Assembly (NCBI RefSeq): GCF_030684315.1
Contig: NC_081365.1
Span: forward strand, 34,251,394 to 34,315,393
Origin: Stegostoma tigrinum
Taxonomy: Eukaryota
Reading direction: 5' to 3'
DNA length: 64,000 bases
Shown here: piece by piece, positions 7,635 to 60,705 of the stretch
How positions within the stretch are numbered: position 1 is the stretch's first letter
Layout: each line of letters begins with the position of its first letter
Program-made: the position numbers and the translations under genes
Notes under the pieces: generated by a model
Database searches by the model: none
Seen by the model: the letters and a program-made list of their open reading frames with translations, nothing else
Told to the model about the DNA's origin: nothing

Positions 7635-9490
7635 AAGAGCAAAGAAGAACAAAAGAAAATTACAGTACAGGAACAGGCCCTTCGGCCCTCCAAGCCTGCA
7701 CTGACACAACTAGCACCCCCCCCCCAACCCTTCCAGTGACTGTACCCCTCTATTCCCATCCTATTCATGTATTTGACAAGACGCTCTTTAAAGTCACTAT
7801 CATATCAGCTTTCACTACCTCCCCCGGCAGCAAGTTCCAGGCACCCACCAACCTCTGTGTAAAAACAACTTACCTCGTACATCACCTTTAAACCTAGCCC
7901 CTCGCACCTTAAACCCCTGGCCCCTAGTAACTGATTCTTCCACCCTGGGAAAAAGCTTCTGACTGTTCAGCCTGTCCCTGCTCTTTCATAATCTTTAGAC
8001 CTCTATCAGGTCACCCCTCAACCTCCGTCGTTCCAGTGAGAATAACCCAGGTTTCTCCAACCTCTCCTCATAGCTAATGCCATGCAACATCCTTGTAAAT
8101 CTTTTCTGTACCCTCTCCAAAGCCACCACGTCCTTCTGGAAGTGTGGCAACTAGAATTGAATGCAATATTCCAAATGCGGCCTAACTGAGGTTCTGTAAA
8201 GCTGCAACATTACCTGCCAATGTTTAAACTCAATGGCCCAGCTAATGAAGGTAAGCATGCCATATGCCTTGTTGACTACCTGCGTTGCCACGTTTAGTGA
8301 CCTGTGTACCTGTACACCCAGATCTCTCTGCCTATCAGTACTCTTAAGAGCTCTGCCATTTACGGTATATTTTCCATCTGAATTAGACCTTCCAAAATGC
8401 ATTACCTCACATGTTCCCGGATTAAACTGGAATTCCTGGCCATCCCTCTGCCCAAGCCACCAACCAATCTATACCAGCTATATCCTTTGACGGTCCTCAT
8501 TGCTATCTGCAATTCCACCAACCTTTGTGTCACCGCAAACTTACTAATCAGACCAGTTACATTCTCCTCCAATTCATTTATACATATTACAAACAGCAAA
8601 GGTCCCAACACTGATCCCTGAGGAACACAAGTCATAGCCCTCCATTCAGAAACGCACCCTACCACTGCTACCGTCTGTCTTCTATGACCAAGCCAGTTTT
8701 TTTTTTAATCCATCCTGCAAACTCACCTCTGACTCCATGCGACTTTACCTTCTGTATTAGCCTGCCATGAAGGATCTTGTCAAAGGCCTTACTGAAGTCC
8801 ATGTAGAGAACATCCACTGCCCTACCCTCATTGATCATGTTCGTCACTTCCTCAAAAAACTCAACCAAGTTAGTGAGACACAACCTCCTCTTCACAAAAC
8901 CTTGTTGCCTCTCGCTAATATGCCCACTAATTTCCAGGTGGGAGTAAATCCTGTCACGAAGAATCGTTTCCAATAATTTCCCTACCACTGATGTAAGACT
9001 CACCAGCCTGTAATTAGCTGGATTATACTTGCCACCCTTCCTTCTTAAACAAAGGAACAACATTGGCTGTTCTTCAGTCCTCAAGGACCTGCCCTGTAGC
9101 CGGTGAGGAAACAAAGATTTCCCTTAAGGCCCCAGCAATTTCCTCCCTTGCCCCTCTCAGTATTCTGGGGTATATCCCATCAGGCCCTGGGGATTTGTCT
9201 ACCTTAATGTTTTTCAAGACCCCCAATACTTCCTCCCTTTTGATCTCAACATGACCCAAAGTATCTACTCACTCTTCCCCAGACTCATCATCCACCAAGT
9301 CCTTCTCTGTGGTGAACACTGACGCAAAGTACTCATTTAATATCTCACCCATTTCCTGTGGCTTCACATATAAATTCCCTTCCCTCTCCTTGAGTGGGCA
9401 ATCCCTCTGCCTGGCTACCCTCTTGTTCTTAATATAAGTATAAAAAGCCTTGGGATATTCCTTAACCCTGTTGGCCAATGACTCATCTAA
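7635..9490 (-). mobile_element. CR1/HER1-like LINE, 5'-truncated and frameshifted
   Basis: ORF fragments KSPGPDGIYPR, YMDFSKAFDK, VPQGSVLGP, RPHLEYCIQF; tail GAAGGGCCTGTTCCTGTACTGTAATTTTC. Confidence 0.95.
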
Positions 9491-9754
9491 TGCCTTCCAC
9501 CAATGTAAAATCCCTAGCCCTAGCAATTACCTTGTCACCACGGATGCCAGTTATCTCCAAGCCTTCAATCCTCACCAGGACAACTTGAGGGATTTCCTTC
9601 CTTGAATTGAAGTTTTGCCAGTTCACATCAACTGCCAGCTTCTTCCACCTGTCAGTGCCTGTGAACGCATTGTGGTTTTCCTTTTACTTACTTAGCAATA
9701 CCTTCCATTTAGAAAAATCCATGGATTCTAGCTACATCTGCCTATTTATGTGAT

Positions 9755-17214: not shown

Positions 17215-17690
17215 ATCACATAGGAGCTAGGAGCAGGAATAGGTAATTCAAGCCTGCTCCACCATTTGTTATGATCATGGCTGATTTTATCTTGGCTCAA
17301 ATTCAGTTTCTGCCCACTTCCTTTTAATACATTACTAATTAATAATTTAACCTATCGCCTCCTGAAATTTTTTTAATGCCCTAGTGTTTAAGACTGTATG
17401 ATGTCATGATTTTGACAGACTCACAACCCTTTGAGAGAAATAATTCCTCCTCATCTTTGTTTTAAATCTGCCACCCCTTAGCCTGACTATGACCTATCAT
17501 TCTAGATTACCCCATAAGGGGAAACACCTATTCTCCATCAACTTTGTCAATCTCCCTTAGCAACTTAAATTCTCAATTAGGCCTCCTCATTCTTCTAAAC
17601 TCTAGTTGGTCTAGGCTCAAGCTGCTCAATGTCTCCTCATAAACCAAGCCTTTCATTTCTGGAATTAATCTAGTGAATTAATCTCGTTGT
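17215..17690 (-). mobile_element. Old CR1 3' end within the putative 3' UTR
   Basis: cataggagctaggagcaggaatagg...atcatggctgat tail, followed by antisense RT C-terminal remnants. Confidence 0.75.
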
Positions 17691-34825: not shown

Positions 34826-35444
34826 ATATATTCCACCATAATATTTCAGAAGCAGGTGAGATATAAAATCAATATTGCTGCTCTCAATTACAAAAAAAAA
34901 ACCCTGGGTGGATGAAGGAGCACTTTTATTTATTTTCTGGAAGGGGAAATCAAAAATCAAATCAATATGATCACTTCAAAAAGAACAGCAGACCGACGTG
35001 GACCTGCTGGAGATACAGAACAGGAAGGAAGATAAATATGTCAGATTTGGGGAAAAGAATCAACATGATATAAAAGGAAATTTGCGATTGATTGGTTTAT
35101 GAGTAAGTGCTGTTGGGGACTGTTTGTAATGAGCTAAATTTGAGAAAAATGCTTTTTTTTTTAAAAACAACCTTGCTGGAAGTTATTTGAGAGTCTAGTC
35201 AAAGAAAGAAACAAGTGATGTCATTATTAATCTTTTTTCAGTGGTAAAGCTATTTGATTCTAAGGTTTAAGTTAGTACAGTAAAGTGGCGGTGAGAAGAG
35301 GCTTAATACTGAGTCGTAATTAAACATCTAAGACAATAAAAGATTAGATTGCAGGTGACGTGATGGATGAAGTGGGAGCTCTTGGATTCCAGTGTGATCC
35401 AGGGTAGACAGGTAAATTTTTGCAGCTTAAGCAGCTTTGGTTCT

Positions 35445-35792
35445 GTGCTTTCCAGTCCTCTGGGACCTTCCCTGACTCTAGTGATTCCTGGAAGATCACC
35501 ACTAATGCTTCCACTATTTGTTCAGCCATCTCCTTTAGAACTCTGGGGTAGAGTCCATCTGGTCCAGGTGAATTGTCCACCTTCAGGCCTATCAGTTTTA
35601 CTAGTACCTTTTCCTTGGTGATGGCCACTATATTCAGCTCTGCCCCCTGACTCTCTTGAATTTTTGAGAGATTACTTGTGTCTTCCACTGTGAAGACTGA
35701 CACAAAGTAATTATTCAGTTCCTCAGCCACTTGCTCCTAAGATGCTGCTTTGGCCTGCTGTGTTCATTCAGCTCCACACTTTGTTATCTCAG
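35445..35792. mobile_element. CR1 RT fragment (-) fused to half of a pLTR palindrome
   Basis: ELNNYFVSVFT..SPGPDGLYPRVLKE..VPEDWK; 35732-35792 matches the right arm of 63416-63638. Confidence 0.8.
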
Positions 35793-41555: not shown

Positions 41556-42623
41556 AGAACATGTTGTGCCGACATATTAATCTACTGAGATCAATCTACC
41601 CTGCATACCGTACATTTTACTATCCTCCATGTGCCTATCCAAGAGTCGCTTAAAAGTCTCTAAAGTATCTAACTCCACTACCACTGCCGGCAGCGCATTC
41701 CACACGCCCACTACTCTCTGTGTGAAGAACCTACCACTGACATCTCCCCTATACCTTCCTCCAATCACCTTAAAATTATGCCCCCCTCATAACAGTCATT
41801 TCCACTCTGGAAAAAATCTCTCACTTCCCACTCTATCTTTGCCTCTCATCATCTTTTACACCTCTGTCAAGTCACCTCTCATCCTTCTTCACTCCAATGA
41901 AAATTGCCCTCGCTCCTTCAACATTTCCTCTTCAAACCTGCCTTCCAGTCCAGGCAGCATCCTGGTAAATTTCCTCTGCACCTTCTCTAAAGCTTCCACA
42001 TCTTTCCTACAATGAGGTGACCAGAACTGAACGCAATATCTCAAGTGTGGTCTAACCAGAGTTTTATACAGCCGCAGCATAACCTCACAGCTCTTAAACT
42101 CAATTCAAATGCCAATGAAAGCCAACACATCATATGCCTTCTTTACAACCATATCAACTTGGATGGCAACTTTGATGGTTTTGTGGGCGTGGACCCCAAG
42201 ATCCCTCTGTTCCTCCACACTGCCAAGTAACCTGCCATTAACCCTGTATTCTGCATTCAAATTCAACATTCCAAAATGAATCACTTCACACTTTTCTGGG
42301 TCGAATTCCATCTGCCACTTCTTTGCCCAGGTCTGCATCCTGACAATGTTCCATTGCAACCTACAACAGCCCTCCACACTATCCACAACTCCTCCAACCT
42401 CCATGTCATTGGCAAACTCACTAACCCACCCTTCCAATTCCTCATCCAAGTCATTTATAAAGATCACAAAGAGCAGGGGAGCCAGAACAGATCCCTGTGG
42501 AACACCACTGGTCACCGAGCTTCAGGCTGAATACTTTCGTTCCATTACCACCCTCTGTCTTCTACTGGACAGCCAGTTTTGTATCCAGACAGCCAAATTG
42601 CCCTGAATCCCATGCCCCCTTAA
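41556..42623 (-). mobile_element. CR1/HER1-like LINE 3' 1.1 kb
   Basis: SGVPQGSVLAP, FANDMEVGG, RPHLRYCVQFWSP, RFFTQRVV. Confidence 0.95.
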
Positions 42624-42893
42624 CTTGTAATATGGCAATGAGCTTGTAATTCAAAGGGCCCAGACTCTGGGGGTCAAGGGTTCAAATGCCATTATGGAAG
42701 CTGTTGGAATTTAAGTTAATATATCTGGGAATGAAATCTAGTGTCAGCAGTGGAAATCATGAAACTTTCAATTGTTATAAGACCCCATTTGTTTCACCAA
42801 TGCCTTCTAGGGAGGTACAACTGTCAGCCTTACATAGTCTGGCCTACATGTGACTGCAGACCCACAGGAATGAGTTTGATTCTTAACTACTTG

Positions 42894-47004: not shown

Positions 47005-48615
47005 ATGCAATACAACAAAGGAACAGGCCTTTCAGCCCAGCAAGCCTGGGCTGATTGCTAGTCCTTATTTAGACCTGCTACTTATTGTCCATAAATGGTT
47101 TCTAGTTCTCTATTCACCTCCCATTCATGTGTCTATCAAGATATACCTTAAGTGTTGCTAACATACCTGTTTCCACAACCCCTACTGGCAATGTGCCCAC
47201 TACCTTCTGTGTGAAATATTTGCCCTGCACTTCTCCCCTTAAACTTTCCCCCACTCACCCTGAACCTGTTGATCTTTCCATCCTGGGAAAAAGCCTCTCA
47301 CTAAGCATCCCATCTGCACCTCTCATAATTTTGTAGGTCTCTATCAGGTCACCCTTCAGCCTCCATCTGTCCATTGAAAAATGATCTGAGACAGCCAACA
47401 TCTCTTCATAACTAAAATCTTCCAGACCAGGCAAAATCCTGGTAAACATCCTCTCCAAAGCATCCACGTCTATGGCGACCAGAACTACATGCAATATTCC
47501 AAAAGTGGCCTAACTAAAGTTTTACACAGCTGTAACATAACTTGCCAATTCTTATATTTGATGTCCCGGCCGATGAAGACAAGCATGCTGTATGCCTTCT
47601 TGACCACCTTATCCAACTGTGTTGCCACTTTCAAGGACCTGTTGATCTAACCTCTTGGAGCCCTCTGTATGCCAATGCTTCTGAGGGTTATGCCATTTAT
47701 TGTACCATTTGCACCTGAATTTGACCCTCCAAAATGCATCACCTCGCATTTGTCTGGGTTAAACTCCATCTGCCATTTCTCTGCCCAAATCTGCAATCTA
47801 TCCATATCCTACTGTATCCTTTGACAATCCTCCTCACTATCTGCAACTCTTCCAATTTTGGTGTCATCTGCAAACTTACTAATCAGACCACCAACATTTT
47901 CCTCCAGATCTTCTCTACATGTTACAAACGACAAAGGTCCCAGCACTGATCCCAGTGGAACACCACTAGTTACTAATCTCCATTCTGAAACCTCCCTTTC
48001 ACTGCTACTTTCTGTCTTCTATGACCAAGCCAGTTTTGTATCTATCTAGCTAGCTCGGCCTGGATCCCATGAGACTCTATCTTTTGTATCAATCTGCCAT
48101 GAAGTACTTATCAAATGCCTTACTAAAGTTCATGTAAACAACAGCCCTTCCATCAACAATCATTCTTGTCACCTCCTCAAAAGACTCAATCGAGTTGATG
48201 AAACATGACCTTCCCCGTGAAAACCCATGCTGCCTATCACTAACAAGTCCATTTGCCTCCAAATGTGATGAAATATGCTCTCAGTCTCTTCTCCAAAGGC
48301 ATCCCCACCACTGACATCAGGCTCACTGGCCTGTAGTTACCTGGATTATCTCGGTTTCCTTTATTAAACAACAGAACAACATTAGCAATTCTCCAGTCCT
48401 CTGGAACATTGGCTGAGGCCAAACCTGGAATGGATCCCATCTGGCCCTGGGTTCTTGTCTACCTTCATGCATTTCTAGACTTCCTCCCTCATTATATTGA
48501 CCTGTCCAAAAGTATTCACACACCTTTCCCTAACCTCAGCTTCCCTCACATCCCTCTTTTTGGTGAAAACTGATGTAAAGTACTTATTTAAGGATCTCAC
48601 CCATTTCCTCTGGCT
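47005..48615 (-). mobile_element. Degenerate CR1 LINE
   Basis: VPEDWRIANVVLLFNKGNRDNPGNYRPVSL; FTRILPGLE; CR1 tail at ~47010-47045. Confidence 0.9.
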
Positions 48616-50085: not shown

Positions 50086-50512
50086 TTGGAGGGAAGGTCT
50101 TACAAGGAAAGGCTGAGGGATTTGAGGCTGTTTTCATTAGAGAGAAGAAGGTTGAGAGGTGACTTAATTGAAACATATAAAATAATCAGAGGGTTAGATA
50201 GGGTGGATAGGGAGAGCCTTTTTCCTAGGATGATGACGGCGAGCACGAGGGGGCATAGCTTTAAATTGAGGGGTGAAAGATATAGGACCGATGTCAGAGG
50301 TAGTTTCTTTACTCGGAGAGTAGTAAGGGAATGGAACGCTTTGCCTACAACAGTAGTAGATTCGCCAACTTTAGGTACATTTAAGTCGTCATTGGACAAG
50401 CATATGGACGTACATGGAATAGTGTGGGTTAGATGGGCTTGAGATCGGTATGACAGGTTGGCACAACATCGAGGGCCGAAGGGCCTGTACTGTGCTGTAA
50501 TGTTCTATGTTA
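50086..50512 (+). mobile_element. CR1 3' end
   Basis: EGRSYKERLRDLRLFSLERRRLRGDLIE..FFTRRVVREWNALP; tail TGTTCTATGTT. Confidence 0.95.
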
Positions 50513-54052: not shown

Positions 54053-54553
54053 AAAGAACAATTGAATTATTGTTGTCACATGAACTGAGATACAGTGAAA
54101 AGTGTTGTTTGTGTCATATTCAGGTAGATTGTACTATATAAATTGCATCAGAGCAGCAGAACAGTGTGCGGATTATAGTGTTACAGCCACAGAGAAGGTG
54201 CAGAGTGAGAGATCAGAATTAACATTTAAGAGGTCCATACAAAACTCGAATAAAAGCAAGGAAGAAGCTGTCCTTGAGTCTGTACATGTATTCTAACTTT
54301 TATACCTCTGCCTGATGGGAGAGGGTAGATGACAGCATAACTGGGGGTGGGAGAGGTCTTTGTTTATGTTGGTTGTTTTCCTGAAGTGGGAAATATAGAT
54401 GGAGTCAATGGATGGGAGGCTGGACTGCCTGATGGATTGAGCTGCATTCACAAGTCTCTGTGGCTTAGAACATAGAACATAGAACAGTACAGCACAGAAC
54501 AGGCCCTTCAGCCCACAATGTTGTGCCGACCATTGATCCTCATGGATGCACCC

Positions 54554-57454
54554 TCAAATTTCTGTGACCATATGCATGTCCAGCAGTCTCTTAAATGACC
54601 CCAATGACCTTGCTTCCACAACTGCTGCTGGCAACGCATTCCATGCTCTCACAACTCTCTGTGTAAAGAACCTGCCTCTGACATCCCCTCTATACTTTCC
54701 ACCAACCAGCTTAAAACTATGACCCCTCGTGCTAGCCATTTCTGCCCTGGGAAATAGTCTCTGGCTATCGACTCTATCTATGCCTCTCATTATCTTGTAT
54801 ACCTCAATTAGGTCCCCTCTCCTCCTCCTTTTCTCCAATGAAAAGAGACCGAGCTCAGTCAACCTCTCTTCATAAGATAAGCCCTCCAGTCCAGGCAGCA
54901 TCCTGGTAAACCTCCTCTGAACCCTCTCCAAAGCATCCACATCTTTCCTATAATAGGGCGCCCAGAACTGGACGCAGTATTCCAAGTGCGGTCTAACCAA
55001 AGTTTTATAGAGCTGCAACAAGATCTCACGACTCTTAAACTCAATCCCCCTGTTAATGAAAGCCAAAACACCATATGCTTTCTTAACAACCCTGTCCACT
55101 TGGGTGGCCGTTTTAAGGGATCTATGTATCTGCACACCAAGATCCCTCTGTTCCTCCACGCTGCCAAGAATCCTATCCTTAATCCTGTACTCAGCTTTCA
55201 AATTCGACCTTCCAAAATGCATCACCTCGCATTTATCCAGGTTGAACTCCATCTGCCACCTCTCAGCCCATCTCTGCATCCTGTCAATGTCCCGCTGCAG
55301 CCTACAACAGCCCTCTACACTGTCAACGACACCTCCGACCTTTGTGTCGTCTGCAAACTTGCTGACCCATCCTTCAATTCCCTCGTCCAAGTCATTAATA
55401 AAAATTACAAACAGTAGAGGCCCAAGGACAGAGCCCTGTGGAACCCCACTCACCACTGACTTCCAGGCAGAATATTTTCCTTCTACTACCACACGCTGTC
55501 TTCTGTTGGCCAGCCAATTCTGTATCCAAGCAGCTAAGTTCCCCTGTATCCCATTCCTCCTGACCTTCTGAATGAGCCTTCCATGGGGAACCTTATCAAA
55601 TGCCTTACTGAAGTCCATATACACCACATCCACAGCTCGACCCTCATCAACCTTACTAGTCACATCCTCAAAAAACTCGATAAGGTTTGTAAGGCATGAC
55701 CTACCCCTCACAAAGCCGTGTTGACTGTATTTGATCAAGCCATGCTCTTCCAGATGGTCATAAATCTTATCCCTCAGAATCCTTTCTAACACCTTGCAGA
55801 CGACAGACGTGAGACTTACCGGTCTATAATTGCCGGGGATTTCCCTATTTCCTTTCTTGAAGAGAGGAATTACATTTGCCTCTCTCCAGTCCTCAGGTAC
55901 GACTCCAGTGGAGAGCGAGGATGCAAAGATCTTCGCAAGTGGCGAAGCAATTGCATTTCTCGCTTCCCAAAGCAGCCGAGGACAAATCTGATCCGGGCCT
56001 GGCGACTTGTCAATCTTAATGTTTGACAAAATTTTCAGTACATCAGCTTCCTCTATCTCTATCCATTCCAGCATGCACACCTGCTCTTCAAAGGTTTCAT
56101 TCACTACACAGTTTGTTTCTTTCGTAAAGACAGAAGCAAAAAACTCATTTAGGGCTTCCCCTACCTCCTCAGGCTCCACACACAAGTTCCCTATGCTATC
56201 CCTGATCGGCCCTACTCTTTCTTTGACCATTCTCTTATTCCTCACGTAAGTGTAAAATGCCTTTGTGTTTTCCCGGATTCCTTCTGCCAAGCCTTTCTCG
56301 TGCCCCCTCCTGGCTCTCCTCAGACCATTTTTGAGCTCCTTCCTTGCCTGCATGTAATCCTCTCTAGCTGAACTTGACCCTAGCTTCCTCCACCTTATGT
56401 AAGCTACCTTCTTCCTTTTCACTAGAAGCTCCACCGCTCTCGTCATCCAAGGTTCCTTTATCTTACCCCTTCTTGCCTGTCTCAGAGGGACATATTTACT
56501 CATCACTCCCAACAACTGTTCCTTAAACCATCTCCACATGTCTATAGTTCCCTTACCATGGAACAACTGCTCCCAGTCCATGCTTCCTAACTCGTGTCTA
56601 ATCGCATCATAGTTTCCTCTTCCCCAATTAAATATCCTCCCATTCTGCCTAATCCTCTCCTTCTCCATAGCTATGTAGAATGAGAGAGTGTTATGGTCAC
56701 TATCACCAAAATGCTCTCCCACCACAAGATCTGATACCTGCCCCGGCTCGTTTCCGAGCACCAAGTCTAGAATGGCCTCTCCCCTCGTCGGCCTGTCAAC
56801 GTACTGCGTTAGGAAACCCTCCTGAACACACCTTACAAAAACAGCTCCATTCAAATCTTCTGCTCGAAGGAGGTTCCAATCAATATTAGGAAAGTTAAAG
56901 TCACCCATTACAACAACCCTACTGCGTCCACACTTTTCCAAAATCTGTCGACCTATGCTTTCTTCAATCTCCCTGCTGCTATTGGGGGGCCTGTAGTAAA
57001 CCCCTAACGAGGTGACTACTCCCTTGCTGTTCCTAATTTCCACCCATACTGACTCAGTAGGCAGATCTTCCTCGACAATGGAAGCTTCTGTAGCTGTGAT
57101 ACCCTCTCTGATTAGTAGTGCTACACCCCCTCCTCTTTTTCCCCCCTCCCTATTCTTTTTAAATGTTCTAAACCCTGGAACATCCAGCAACCATTCCTGC
57201 CCATGAGAAACCCATGTCTCTGTTATGGCCGCAACATCATAGCACCAGGTACTGATCCATGCTCTAAGTTCATCACTTTTATTCCTGATACTCCTTGCAT
57301 TAAAGCAAACACACTTTAACCGATCCCTTGGTTCCTTCCCAGGAAAATCCTTCCCACTAGCTGGTCTACCTCTTGCTACTGCCTCACCTGCATCAACGCT
57401 CACCTCTGGTATACAGCTCAGGTTCCCACCCCCCTGCCATACTAGTTTAAACCC
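54554..57454 (-). CDS. CR1 ORF2: APE endonuclease + reverse transcriptase, intact, no AUG start
   Basis: FNARSI, ITETW, YYRPP, MGDFNFP, DSDH, YMDFSKAFDKVPH, GVPQGSVLGP, KFADD. The ORF-track start at 57562 is TTG; the first ATG (56908) lies inside the EN domain. Confidence 0.95.
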   Translation of the reverse strand, partial: GFKLVWQGGGNLSCIPEVSVDAGEAVARGRPASGKDFPGKEPRDRLKCVCFNARSIRNKSDELRAWISTWCYDVAAITETWVSHGQEWLLDVPGFRTFKKNREGGKRGGGVALLIREGITATEASIVEEDLPTESVWVEIRNSKGVVTSLGVYYRPPNSSREIEESIGRQILEKCGRSRVVVMGDFNFPNIDWNLLRAEDLNGAVFVRCVQEGFLTQYVDRPTRGEAILDLVLGNEPGQVSDLVVGEHFGDSDHNTLSFYIAMEKERIRQNGRIFNWGRGNYDAIRHELGSMDWEQLFHGKGTIDMWRWFKEQLLGVMSKYVPLRQARRGKIKEPWMTRAVELLVKRKKVAYIRWRKLGSSSAREDYMQARKELKNGLRRARRGHEKGLAEGIRENTKAFYTYVRNKRMVKERVGPIRDSIGNLCVEPEEVGEALNEFFASVFTKETNCVVNETFEEQVCMLEWIEIEEADVLKILSNIKIDKSPGPDQICPRLLWEARNAIASPLAKIFASSLSTGVVPEDWREANVIPLFKKGNREIPGNYRPVSLTSVVCKVLERILRDKIYDHLEEHGLIKYSQHGFVRGRSCLTNLIEFFEDVTSKVDEGRAVDVVYMDFSKAFDKVPHGRLIQKVRRNGIQGNLAAWIQNWLANRRQRVVVEGKYSAWKSVVSGVPQGSVLGPLLFVIFINDLDEGIEGWVSKFADDTKVGGVVDSVEGCCRLQRDIDRMQRWAERWQMEFNLDKCEVMHFGRSNLKAEYRIKDRILGSVEEQRDLGVQIHRSLKTATQVDRVVKKAYGVLAFINRGIEFKSREILLQLYKTLVRPHLEYCVQFWAPYYRKDVDALERVQRRFTRMLPGLEGLSYEERLTELGLFSLEKRRRRGDLIEVYKIMRGIDRVDSQRLFPRAEMASTRGHSFKLVGGKYRGDVRGRFFTQRVVRAWNALPAAVVEARSLGSFKRLLDMHMVTEI

Positions 57455-58059
57455 TCTCGAACTACTCGAGCAAACCTTCCACCCAGGACATTGGTCCCCT
57501 TCCAGTTCAGATGCAACCCGTCCTTCTTGTACAGGTCCCACCTTCCCCAGAAGGCATCCCAATTATCAACATATCTGAAGCCCTCCCTCCTACACCAGCT
57601 GCGTAGCCACGTGTTCAGCTGCGCCCGCTCCCTGTTCCTCACCTCGCTATCTCGTGGCACCGGTAGTAAACCAGAGAACACTACTCTGTTCGTCCTGCTC
57701 TGCAGCTTCCATCCTAACTCCCTGAAATCACTTTTTATATCCTCAAACCTATTTCTGGCTATATCATTTGTGCCAATATGTAACACGATTTCTGGCTGTT
57801 CACCCTCCCCTTTCAGAACTTTATACACCCGATCGGAGACGTCCCGGACCCTGGCACCAGGGAGGCAACATACCTTCCGGGAATCCCGATCTTGCCCACA
57901 AAATCTCCTGTCGATTCCCCTAACTATCGAGTCCCCTACCACGAGTACTTTTCTATTCTGCCCCCTTCCCTTCTTTGCCACAGTGTCAGGCTCAGTGCCA
58001 GAGAACTGACTACTATGGCTTTCCTCTGGTAGGTCAACCCCCCCAGCAGTATCCAAAAC
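57442..58059 (-). CDS. CR1 ORF1 C-terminal SGNH/GDSL esterase domain (N-terminus lost)
   Basis: VVGDS, LPGA, HIGTND and DGLH blocks all intact. Confidence 0.92.
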   Translation of the reverse strand, partial: VLDTAGGVDLPEESHSSQFSGTEPDTVAKKGRGQNRKVLVVGDSIVRGIDRRFCGQDRDSRKVCCLPGARVRDVSDRVYKVLKGEGEQPEIVLHIGTNDIARNRFEDIKSDFRELGWKLQSRTNRVVFSGLLPVPRDSEVRNRERAQLNTWLRSWCRREGFRYVDNWDAFWGRWDLYKKDGLHLNWKGTNVLGGRFARVVREGLN

Positions 58060-59657
58060 GGCTTCTTGTGTCTAAGGAAAATTAGTTGCCATACCAGGCT
58101 GTGATGCATCCAGATAGGATGCTATGACACATCCATAAAAATTGTTAAGAGACACTGGAGACTTGCAAAATTTCCTTAGTCTCCTGAGGAAGTAGAGATG
58201 TTATTATGCTTTCTTGACCGTTGCGTTGATGTGGGAGGATCAGGACAGGTTATTGGTGATCATTACTCCCAGGAACTTAGTGCTCTCAGCTATCTCCATC
58301 TCAGTATCGATGAGGTTAAAAGAGACATAAATGTCCTTAGCACCAATCACAGAGTGTTAGTGAGCAGAAATGATAATCAATGTGAACAGCAACACCAGCT
58401 GTATACAGCAGTTTGCCACCACACATCAAGTGGTTTCCAAAGCTCCAAAACAGGTGTCAGGCATGCAGACAAGGTGCAAGTAAAAATCATCCCTTGGATC
58501 TTTAAAGACTTCAACCAACTCCAAGTAACTTTTAGTCAGGCAGAACACTCCAGCATAAACTTTTGAAACTTTTAATCTGTAATGCCAGTGATAGAATTCC
58601 CACACCTGTGAGCCATCAGGATGGTTTACTGATTTAAAGGTGCTATGTACACACAATTTTTTGATTATTGCCTGAGATGGAAAACATGCTTTATCTTAAT
58701 ATTTTATCGACTGTGAGATTGTATTATAAAGTAATGTAAAAGCTATATTTATTTCATAGTCTCTATTTCTGAACACAGAGATTCTGGAGTACAACTGCTA
58801 GAAAAGGGTTGATCCATGAGTGAGCACTCCAGCGTTCATTTACCAATATGGAACACATGTCAGGAACACAGATTACTGAGACAGTCTTACTGGCTGGTTT
58901 TACCTAGGGCTTAATATGAAGATGTTTGATCATATGCTGAAGTGCAAACAGTAATTGGGTTATACATAAATTTCAATTATTACCTCAGCTCTTGATAGTT
59001 ACCTGTCGAAACCAGCATTCAAAATGCTTTTCAGTGGGGAATGGTCTGCAACAATGCATTGATGAATGGGTACACACCATATGTACAGTTTATAGTCAGT
59101 TGTGCTGCGTTTGACAGTAGAACCTATAATTACTTTCCGCATTAACAGTTGGAGCAGAGACTCCTCAGGGTTGGATTGACTCCAATGTGATTCAGCTCAC
59201 CATGAAAGATTAGAATTGAATGAATTTGTCAATAAATTGGTTTGGACATGTAAATGTTACGAGAGAAAGCTGTATCAGACACCTAGCTAACCAAAAGGAA
59301 GTGAAATTGGTTTGGTCAGCCACAAGTCACTGAGTGGATACAAGTCCAGATCACAGAATTGTTTCAGTTAACACTGACTGGTACCAAAGTGTTTGTATCA
59401 CTCAGGGCAGCTTCAGTAGGAAACAGAAGTGTCATAAGGGTGCGAGATGTTCCTCTGTTTCACAACTTATCGGAGAAGTGGAGAATTAATGGAATGTTTT
59501 AAAGTTATGAAATGTACTGTTGTAGTGAGTTGAGAAGGGCAGATTTAGCTGTTTGTGAATCGACAGTTAATTGCTGTCTTGATGTCAATGGCAGTCACCC
59601 CAGCACTCCTTCTGGAGTTCAGTTCCCTTGTCCCTCTTCAGATCAAGGCTGCAATAT

Positions 59658-60000: not shown

Positions 60001-60164
60001 GCACTTAATTCCTTCCAAACACATGACATTTGATCATCTCTGATATATCTAGATGCTTTCCAATACTAATGTGTGGGGAACACATTCCATTGTGGTCTCG
60101 TCTCTGGACAAGTCATTTGTCCTGAAACGGCCTGGTGAGATATTCAGTTATAACAAACGTCCGT

Positions 60165-60705
60165 AGTGCGGCCTCATTTGGAATATTGCGTGCAGTTCTA
60201 GTCATCCCATTACAGGAAGGATGTGGAAGCATTGGAAAAAGTGCAGAGGAGATTTACCAGGATGTTGCCTGGTCTGGAGCGCAGGTCCTATGAAGAAAGG
60301 CTGAGGGACTTGGGTCTGTTCTCATTGGAGAGAAGGAGGCTAACAGGGGATTTAATAGAGACATACAAGATGATCAGAGGATTAGATAGGGTGGACAGTG
60401 AGAGTCTTTTTCCGAGGATGATGATGATGTCAGCTTGTACAAGGGGGCATAGCTACAAATTGAGGGGTGAATGGTTTGAGACAGATGTCAGAGGCAGGTT
60501 CTTCACTCAGAGTGGTAAGGGTGTGGAACACCCTGCCTGCCAATGTAGTTAACTCAGCCACATTAGGGGTATTTAAACAGTCCTTGGATAAGCATATGGA
60601 TAATGATGAGATAGTGTAGCGGGTGGGGCTTAGATTAGTTCACAGGTCGGCGCAACATCGAAGGCCGAAGGGCCTGTTCTGCGCTGAATTGTTCTATGTT
60701 CTAAA
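60165..60705 (+). mobile_element. CR1 3' end
   Basis: RPHLEYCVQF..ALEKVQRRFTRMLPGLE; tail GTTCTATGTTCTA. Confidence 0.95.

What the first reader, a model, noticed from the sequence alone, without database searches (positions are those of the whole stretch)
57400..57460. Coronavirus-type -1 ribosomal frameshift signal joining CR1 ORF1 to an AUG-less ORF2
Seen: on the - strand ORF1 ends GAG GGU UUA AAC UAG. This holds two overlapping, correctly phased X_XXY_YYZ heptamers, G_GGU_UUA (57454-57448) and U_UUA_AAC (57451-57445), directly before the stop. ORF2 (GGG UUU AAA CUA GUA UGG) is exactly the -1 frame. Its first AUG is ~179 codons later, inside the endonuclease (MGDFN), and the AUG just after the ORF1 stop is in the third frame and closes after 15 codons. 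A few nt downstream is a G-rich segment that can fold as UAUGGC-AGG...CCU-GA-GCUGUA or as a G-quadruplex. Known: UUUAAAC is the coronavirus slippery site; -1 PRF is typical of retroviruses and LTR elements, while L1 ORF2 is made by termination-reinitiation. Inference: this LINE makes an esterase-EN-RT fusion, gag-pol style. I cannot check whether this has been reported for CR1.
Basis: partly seen in the sequence, partly recalled or inferred. Interest (0 to 1): 0.85.

Follow-up and report, generated by a model that had tools for sequence, protein, structure and literature searches.

The report
Conserved frameshift signal in CR1 LINEs
A very common vertebrate jumping gene (a CR1 LINE) ends its first gene with the same seven-letter slippery sequence in every lineage examined, followed ten bases later by a conserved G-rich patch instead of a folded RNA, so its second gene is likely made by ribosomes slipping back one base, as in retroviruses and coronaviruses.

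Summary
Observation confirmed. A young, 5'-truncated shark CR1 LINE (minus strand, 58066-54466) ends ORF1 (SGNH esterase) with U_UUA_AAC UAG. ORF2 (endonuclease-RT) runs on in the -1 frame, first AUG 179 codons later. This is the family's normal state: 6,066 genomic matches of heptamer+stop+G-patch against 2 for the control. U_UUA_AAC is the commonest state in five shark lineages and stands in seven amniote-type loci; one distant locus has G_UUA_AAC. Other invariant Leu and Asn positions use mixed codons. Among distant ORF1 proteins, 48 of 72 C-termini can encode a slippery heptamer (1-13 of 72 at nearby offsets); eight end QGN, compatible with G_GGA_AAC (DNA not seen). What is conserved is an unstructured GGGGG-NN-GGG at +11 to +20, the geometry of the protein-bound PRRSV stimulator. 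Best reading: -1 frameshifting gives an ORF1-ORF2 fusion (0.8; inferred, untested). Rival: termination-reinitiation, since some lineages have an in-frame AUG at the stop. No CR1 report in nine searches of open papers; the original CR1 papers were not available. The scan noted this signal twice before, in other genomes.

The parts
54466..58066 (-). 5'-truncated young CR1 LINE copy with intact ORF2 and a TTCTA-repeat 3' tail (54466-54490)
   Evidence: 40 of 40 scored genomic matches 100% identical over 57250-57700
57442..58066 (-). 3' part of ORF1: SGNH/GDSL esterase domain, ending ...EGLN-stop (57444-57442). Longer copies give 311 aa from the AUG, with two N-terminal CxxC motifs
   Evidence: Pfam PF13472 6e-14; PDB 4c1b ORF1-encoded protein 6e-29
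57445..57451 (-). Slippery heptamer U_UUA_AAC in ORF1 phase, directly before the stop; the conserved core
57448..57454 (-). Overlapping heptamer G_GGU_UUA; real here, but only in lineages A, B and E
   Evidence: three bases before the core: GGG in A, B, E; GAC in C; GTG in D
57425..57434 (-). G-rich motif GGGGG-NN-GGG at +11 to +20 after the heptamer; candidate unstructured 3' stimulator
   Evidence: G in 11-12 of 12 vertebrate-type representatives at eight positions, three of them third codon positions
57411..57442 (-).
57393..57440 (-). Out-of-frame (+1) AUG ORF of 15 codons after the ORF1 stop
54554..57445 (-). ORF2 in the -1 frame: about 40-codon linker, APE endonuclease (about 57304-56693), RT (about 55858-55133); 963 codons after the slip site; first AUG at 56908

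Best explanation
The U_UUA_AAC heptamer that ends ORF1 of this CR1 LINE family is likely a programmed -1 ribosomal frameshift site, which would let a minority of ribosomes slip back one base before the stop and make an esterase-endonuclease-reverse transcriptase fusion. Shown: the heptamer, its phase, the adjacent stop, the open -1 frame, the lack of a usable AUG in this and two other lineages, and their conservation. Inferred: most ribosomes stop and release the 311-aa ORF1p; the tRNAs on UUA and AAC re-pair on UUU and AAA to give a fusion of about 1,270 aa (about 146 kDa); this sets a gag:gag-pol-like ratio. More weakly inferred: the pause comes from the G-rich patch at +11 to +20, probably through a bound protein rather than a fold, perhaps helped by slow termination at the adjacent stop.
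For: (1) Codon-level fixation: TTTAAAC at the ORF1 end in 133 of 141 distinct copies of five shark lineages found by protein search. Among 13 lineage representatives the last two codons are TTA AAC, while three other invariant Leu columns use 3-5 codons and the other Asn column is split 7:5; four-fold sites agree only 0.08-0.54 between groups (representatives were picked to carry their lineage's majority heptamer). (2) The changes seen stay within known slip-site forms: G_UUA_AAC in L031 (G_UU(A) is listed for equine arteritis virus); one lineage-C subgroup moved the stop one codon on yet kept the heptamer. (3) Proteins only, 50%-identity representatives: the residue before terminal LN lacks a U-ending codon in 1 of 55 against 17% nearby (p 4e-4); 48 of 72 C-terminal tripeptides can encode a perfect X_XXY_YYZ against 1-13 of 72 at offsets 1-7; eight end QGN, compatible with G_GGA_AAC, one SKN, compatible with A_AAA_AAC. 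These and U_UUA_AAC are named among the most shifty mammalian heptamers. (4) Phase: linkers of 37-88 codons stay in the -1 frame; 20 of 24 scorable loci of 30 taken by pattern are in -1 phase, 18 of those 20 without a stop. In 8 of 13 representatives the -1 frame opens only 3-7 codons before the heptamer's end. (5) First in-frame AUG at codon 179 (A), 118 (B), 64 (D, the residue before the NARS motif).
Against: No direct measurement of frameshifting or of a fusion protein. No conserved stem-loop or pseudoknot, the usual stimulator. In-frame AUGs lie at or near the stop in lineage E (UAAUG, the SART1 reinitiation form), in 4 of 7 amniote-type loci (2 codons on), and 14-26 codons on in C, F, L031 and L039, so those could make ORF2p without slipping. 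24 of 72 distant ORF1 proteins end in residues that cannot encode a perfect heptamer. The lineages are related, so counts are not independent (tree: one amniote-type clade and an unresolved group of five shark lineages plus L031). A review states that APE-type ORF1 and ORF2 products are not processed, so a fused ORF2p would have to work with ORF1p attached.
Confidence: 0.8

Rival explanations
1. Termination-reinitiation, as in L1 or SART1: ribosomes stop at the ORF1 stop and restart close by in the -1 frame at an AUG or any codon, giving a separate ORF2p; the heptamer and G patch would be part of the reinitiation signal.
For: UAAUG overlap in lineage E and early in-frame AUGs in several others. 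L1 ORF2 initiation is AUG-independent. The open -1 linker is expected here too.
Against: Does not explain fixed TTA AAC codons upstream of the stop, the U-ending codon before them, or alternative endings that fit other slip sites. Lineages A, B and D lack an AUG ahead of the endonuclease, and the codon after the stop is not always near-cognate (AGT/AGC in D). A subgroup of C moved the stop but kept the heptamer.
Confidence: 0.13
2. ORF2 comes from a spliced or internally started RNA; the motif is a splice acceptor/branch signal with a G-run enhancer, or a TATA-like box with a GC box.
For: G-runs are known splicing enhancers (recalled); CTAG/CAG acceptor-like trinucleotides occur near the stop in several lineages.
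Against: The AG is not at a fixed place (TAA in B, D, E; TTC in part of C) and the upstream sequence is purine-rich. A shorter RNA would still lack an AUG in A and B. Fixed phase to both frames is not expected.
Confidence: 0.03
3. Coincidence of protein constraints: ORF1p needs terminal Leu-Asn, ORF2p needs a Gly-rich start, and the nucleotide motif is inherited baggage.
For: The last ORF1 residues follow the esterase C-terminal segment at a fixed distance, 26 residues from the catalytic Asp in most cases. The sense strand is G-rich.
Against: Protein constraint does not fix synonymous codons. The solved relative 4c1b aligns only to residue 173 of 177, short of the LN. G-patch Gly codons are GGG in 11 of 12 at two positions against 1/14-8/18 elsewhere in ORF2; L031 keeps the G runs while encoding Ala-Gly-Ala-Arg.
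Confidence: 0.04

Closest known systems
Viral -1 frameshift sites: coronavirus IBV U_UUA_AAC, arterivirus ORF1a/1b G_UUA_AAC, retroviral gag-pol (Atkins 2016, PMC5009743, passages)
   Same: Same heptamers, in phase at the end of a 5' ORF, opening an AUG-less polymerase frame.
   Different: No conserved pseudoknot or stem-loop 5-9 nt downstream; host is a non-LTR element without protease or capsid.
PRRSV nsp2 -2/-1 frameshift stimulated by nsp1beta/PCBP (Napthine 2016, PMC4937337, passages)
   Same: Two short homopolymer patches behind a 10-nt spacer, ending about 20 nt after the slip site (21 nt suffice in PRRSV).
   Different: G patches instead of C patches; no binding protein identified; only the -1 frame is useful here.
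Dictyostelium TRE5-A / TRE3-A non-LTR elements (PMC5911963, figure legend)
   Same: APE-RT LINEs stated to need a -1 frameshift for ORF2.
   Different: Different elements with an unrelated ORF1; I saw only the review's statement, no slip site or assay (primary paper not held).
L1 and SART1 ORF2 termination-reinitiation (PMC3894237, parts 1-2 of 3; PMC5009743 and PMC1965478, passages)
   Same: Bicistronic LINE RNA with low ORF2 output; lineage E even has UAAUG.
   Different: L1 has a spacer between its ORFs and SART1 a stop-start overlap; here a fixed heptamer precedes the stop.
CR1 clade LINEs with esterase ORF1 (PDB 4c1b; its source element ZfL2-1 is recalled)
   Same: SGNH esterase ORF1, APE-RT ORF2, short-repeat 3' tail, frequent 5' truncation.
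   Different: No junction mechanism found described for them in the papers searched.

Membership tests
CR1-type non-LTR retrotransposon | ORF2 with APE endonuclease then RT | tested here: met
   PF03372/PF14529 and PF00078
CR1-type non-LTR retrotransposon | ORF1 with SGNH esterase; short-repeat 3' tail; 5' truncation | tested here: met
CR1-type non-LTR retrotransposon | RT phylogeny inside the CR1 clade | not tested
   no named reference RTs in hand; the label CR1 rests on architecture and recall
Programmed -1 frameshift cassette | X_XXY_YYZ heptamer in phase with the upstream ORF | tested here: met
   U_UUA_AAC 57451-57445
Programmed -1 frameshift cassette | Downstream ORF open in -1 frame from the site, without its own start | tested here: met
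   met in this lineage and in B and D; early in-frame AUG in E, C, F, L031 and five amniote-type loci
Programmed -1 frameshift cassette | Site conserved beyond protein constraint | tested here: met
Canonical structure-stimulated -1 frameshift (coronavirus/retrovirus type) | Conserved stem-loop or pseudoknot 5-9 nt downstream | tested here: not met
   z-scores about 0, empty consensus fold, hairpin private to lineage A, no Rfam frameshift element; pseudoknots were not modelled directly, but C, D and E fold to only -1.6 to -4.1 kcal/mol over 60 nt
Protein-stimulated frameshift (PRRSV nsp1beta/PCBP type) | Conserved linear motif about 10 nt downstream | tested here: met
   G patches at +11 to +20; PRRSV spacer 10 nt
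Protein-stimulated frameshift (PRRSV nsp1beta/PCBP type) | Trans-acting protein binds the motif and is required | not testable with these tools
   needs binding and reporter assays
Programmed -1 frameshift cassette | Measured frameshifting or transframe product | not testable with these tools
   needs reporter, ribosome profiling or mass spectrometry

The most novel reading that the evidence does not exclude
CR1 LINEs of sharks, rays, bony fish, frogs, turtles and lizards (and unnamed relatives that swap in G_GGA_AAC) all make their reverse transcriptase as a gag-pol-like fusion by -1 frameshifting, driven not by RNA structure but by a host or element protein bound to a G-rich patch 10 nt downstream: a G-rich mirror of the arterivirus PCBP switch, present in thousands of copies per genome and giving the host a handle on LINE activity.
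Probability: 0.3. Interest if true: 0.92.

Novelty: new variant of a known kind. Interest (0 to 1): 0.74.

Why it matters
How LINEs translate ORF2 is called an open question in the review read (PMC3894237), and the worked cases are reinitiation. A -1 frameshift in esterase-type CR1s, a widespread vertebrate LINE group, would show a second solution shared with retroviruses, would put the ORF1 esterase on the RT-endonuclease, and would correct ORF2 annotations that start at internal AUGs. It is testable with a 40-nt reporter insert. If the G patch works through a bound protein, it would be a cellular-genome case of protein-stimulated -1 frameshifting, which the papers read describe for viruses.

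Tried and rejected
Hairpin and quadruplex as stimulators: not above shuffles and not conserved. Long-range partner for the G patch: best downstream partners fall at different places in each lineage; an upstream partner in the CLPG codons about 420 nt 5' looked good in lineage A (-23 kcal/mol) but cognate pairs are no better than crossed pairs (permutation p 0.36). Rfam: one chance hit, E 3.7. Reads: no run on record as RNA was listed; contigs of four runs (three guessed RNA) cover the junction; none of the 15 joints shown has GT-AG ends on the minus strand (23 not shown) and none of the 40 differences shown is in the heptamer (356 not shown); too weak to count either way. DNA for the QGN-ending family: not found in viral contigs, plasmids or prokaryote genomes (one search gave one weak 27% hit, not examined), so G_GGA_AAC is unverified. 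Alignment A1 found nothing in viral or prokaryote contigs. The L031 query gave nothing in the own genome at the strict cut-off used. In-frame fused copies are one amplified insertion, not an active fused subfamily, and are not used as evidence. The linker stop count (0, 37, 60 stops in the -1, 0, +1 frames over 12 representatives) is biased because representatives were chosen for a long open -1 frame. Papers not held: Kojima 2005 (tried under a recalled id), Kapitonov and Jurka 2003, Marschalek 1992.
Full report
What is there. The minus strand of 58066-54466 is a 5'-truncated LINE with the 3' part of ORF1 and an intact ORF2. ORF1 is an SGNH esterase and ORF2 an APE endonuclease plus RT; the best solved relative of ORF1 is the ORF1-encoded protein 4c1b. 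A 100% identical protein is labelled Stegostoma tigrinum, so the genome (3.2 Gb) is probably that shark. I call the element CR1 from architecture and recall; no RT tree with named references was built.

Not decay. All 40 scored matches (of 573 candidates, best first) are identical over 451 nt around the junction, and 13 of 30 such loci have 327-328 open codons upstream with an AUG about 311 codons before the stop. The window's own copy lacks that start, so the signal matters in the full-length members. The pattern heptamer+stop+7 nt+GGGGGNNGGG occurs 6,066 times against 2 for the reversed control. All of the first 30 places end a frame in xLN; the endonuclease motif could be placed in 24, 20 in -1 phase, 18 of those without a stop.

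Conservation in DNA. Protein searches of the own genome gave five lineages, A to E, 52-71% identical in ORF1. TTTAAAC stands at the expected place in 67 of 67, 14 of 14, 12 of 15, 26 of 30 and 14 of 15 distinct copies; these copies were found by protein likeness that includes the terminal LN, but not by codon. The metagenome scan gave 31 loci; I read 13, of which 10 reach the junction. Nine amniote-type ones (bird-like by recall, source unnamed) have TTTAAAC, eight of them with TAG next; L031 has G_TTA_AAC TAG. In 13 representatives (one natural copy per lineage, picked to carry the majority heptamer and a long -1 frame; L049 and L035 left out) the last codons are TTA AAC throughout, while other invariant Leu columns use 3-5 codons, the other Asn column is split, and four-fold sites agree 0.08-0.54 between groups, 0.26-0.52 among the shark lineages. 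TTA is 0-23% of Leu codons elsewhere in these ORF1s. The rows are not independent: the amniote-type loci form one clade.

Conservation in proteins. 41 of 76 close homologs end in xLN, among them named shark, ray and frog proteins; turtle, monitor lizard, common lizard and eel proteins do too. Among the best 150 of the 50%-identity representatives, 62 end in LN (55 distinct); the residue before is one without a U-ending codon in 1 of 55, against 17% at positions -4 to -11 (p 4e-4). Of 72 distinct proteins that end 20-40 residues after the catalytic motif, 48 have a last tripeptide able to encode a perfect X_XXY_YYZ, against 1-13 at offsets 1-7; eight end QGN (could be G_GGA_AAC) and one SKN (could be A_AAA_AAC); 24 fit no perfect site. 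I could not get DNA for the QGN family, so this swap is a prediction. [quoted passage not shown]

What lies downstream. Local z-scores run from -2.2 to 1.6 over 38 folds, and a quadruplex is predicted in 2 of 13. Instead, positions +11 to +15 and +18 to +20 are G in 11-12 of 12 vertebrate-type representatives, including third codon positions +11, +14 and +20, whereas GGG is 1/14 to 8/18 of Gly codons further into ORF2. L031 has the same two runs three bases nearer. No shared pairing partner was found downstream (about 1.5 kb per lineage at most, the whole element only for A) or upstream (p 0.36). The PRRSV protein-dependent signal has two C patches behind a 10-nt spacer, and 21 nt suffice (PMC4937337, passages): the same geometry. 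That a protein binds the G patch is inference from this likeness only.

Evidence against. Lineage E has UAAUG with the AUG in the ORF2 frame; four of seven amniote-type representatives have an AUG two codons on; C, F, L031 and L039 have one 14-26 codons on. SART1 uses UAAUG and L1 ORF2 starts without needing its AUG. Reinitiation therefore stays open, perhaps beside slipping in some lineages. It does not explain fixed codons upstream of the stop, nor a subgroup of lineage C (9 of 15 copies) that moved the stop one codon on and kept the heptamer. Nothing here measures translation.

Literature. Nine searches of the open library for CR1 or non-LTR elements with frameshift terms found no report for CR1; a tenth was for the PRRSV comparison. 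The frameshifting review has no 'CR1' in its first 300,000 of 449,034 characters. A review of LINE protein synthesis (parts 1-2 of 3 read) calls ORF2 initiation an open question and lists no -1 frameshift there. A figure legend says Dictyostelium TRE5-A and TRE3-A need a -1 frameshift, and Paramecium LINEs are suggested to use +1 shifting, reinitiation or readthrough. PMC5006619, PMC4255032 and PMC1947958 (passages) added nothing. The original CR1 papers (Haas 1997, Kajikawa 1997: recalled, not seen; Kapitonov and Jurka 2003: not held) and Repbase notes may mention it. No supplements were read. Two earlier notes of this scan report the same signal in other genomes; they are not independent support, and I saw only their few listed lines, which do not mention the G patch.

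Verdict. A real, strongly conserved nucleotide signal, best read as a -1 frameshift site (0.8) with an unusual, unstructured G-rich downstream motif. New variant of a known kind; interest 0.74.

Noticed in passing
L122:3667-7356 (G000:C829) and 19 further places: A copy of this family in which a short deletion at the junction removes the stop and G patch and fuses ORF1 to ORF2 in frame (1,230 open codons in L122 and L126). 10 of 12 loci compared differ from L122 at 11 or fewer of 1,500 upstream bases, flank included, so it is one insertion carried in a larger amplified repeat.
   Followed up: partly
L218-L232 (lineage E): ORF1 stop overlaps an in-frame AUG (UAAUG) right after the heptamer: a natural construct to compare slipping with reinitiation.
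   Followed up: partly
L090, L204-L217 (lineage C): Two subgroups: heptamer followed by TAG (5 of 15) or by TTC TGA (9 of 15), so the stop need not be adjacent.
   Followed up: partly
proteins P0134, P0136, P0137, P0140, P0147, P0152, P0158, P0210: Unnamed family of esterase ORF1 proteins ending QGN, predicted to use G_GGA_AAC; two others end FFR and one FFH, meaning unclear.
   Followed up: partly
window 7774-9496, 41628-42626, 47126-48594, 50086-50406, 60160-60598, 35362-35736, 17362-17677: Older 3' fragments of related LINEs, 32-72% protein identity to this ORF2; none reaches the ORF1 junction.
   Followed up: no
proteins P0002, P0036: Shark-type CR1 ORF1 proteins (73% identical) labelled as Pseudomonas aeruginosa and Proteus mirabilis: probably host contamination in bacterial records.
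   Followed up: no
L123:1-4830: A CR1 copy of this family abuts about 4.8 kb of CA-rich simple repeat.
   Followed up: no
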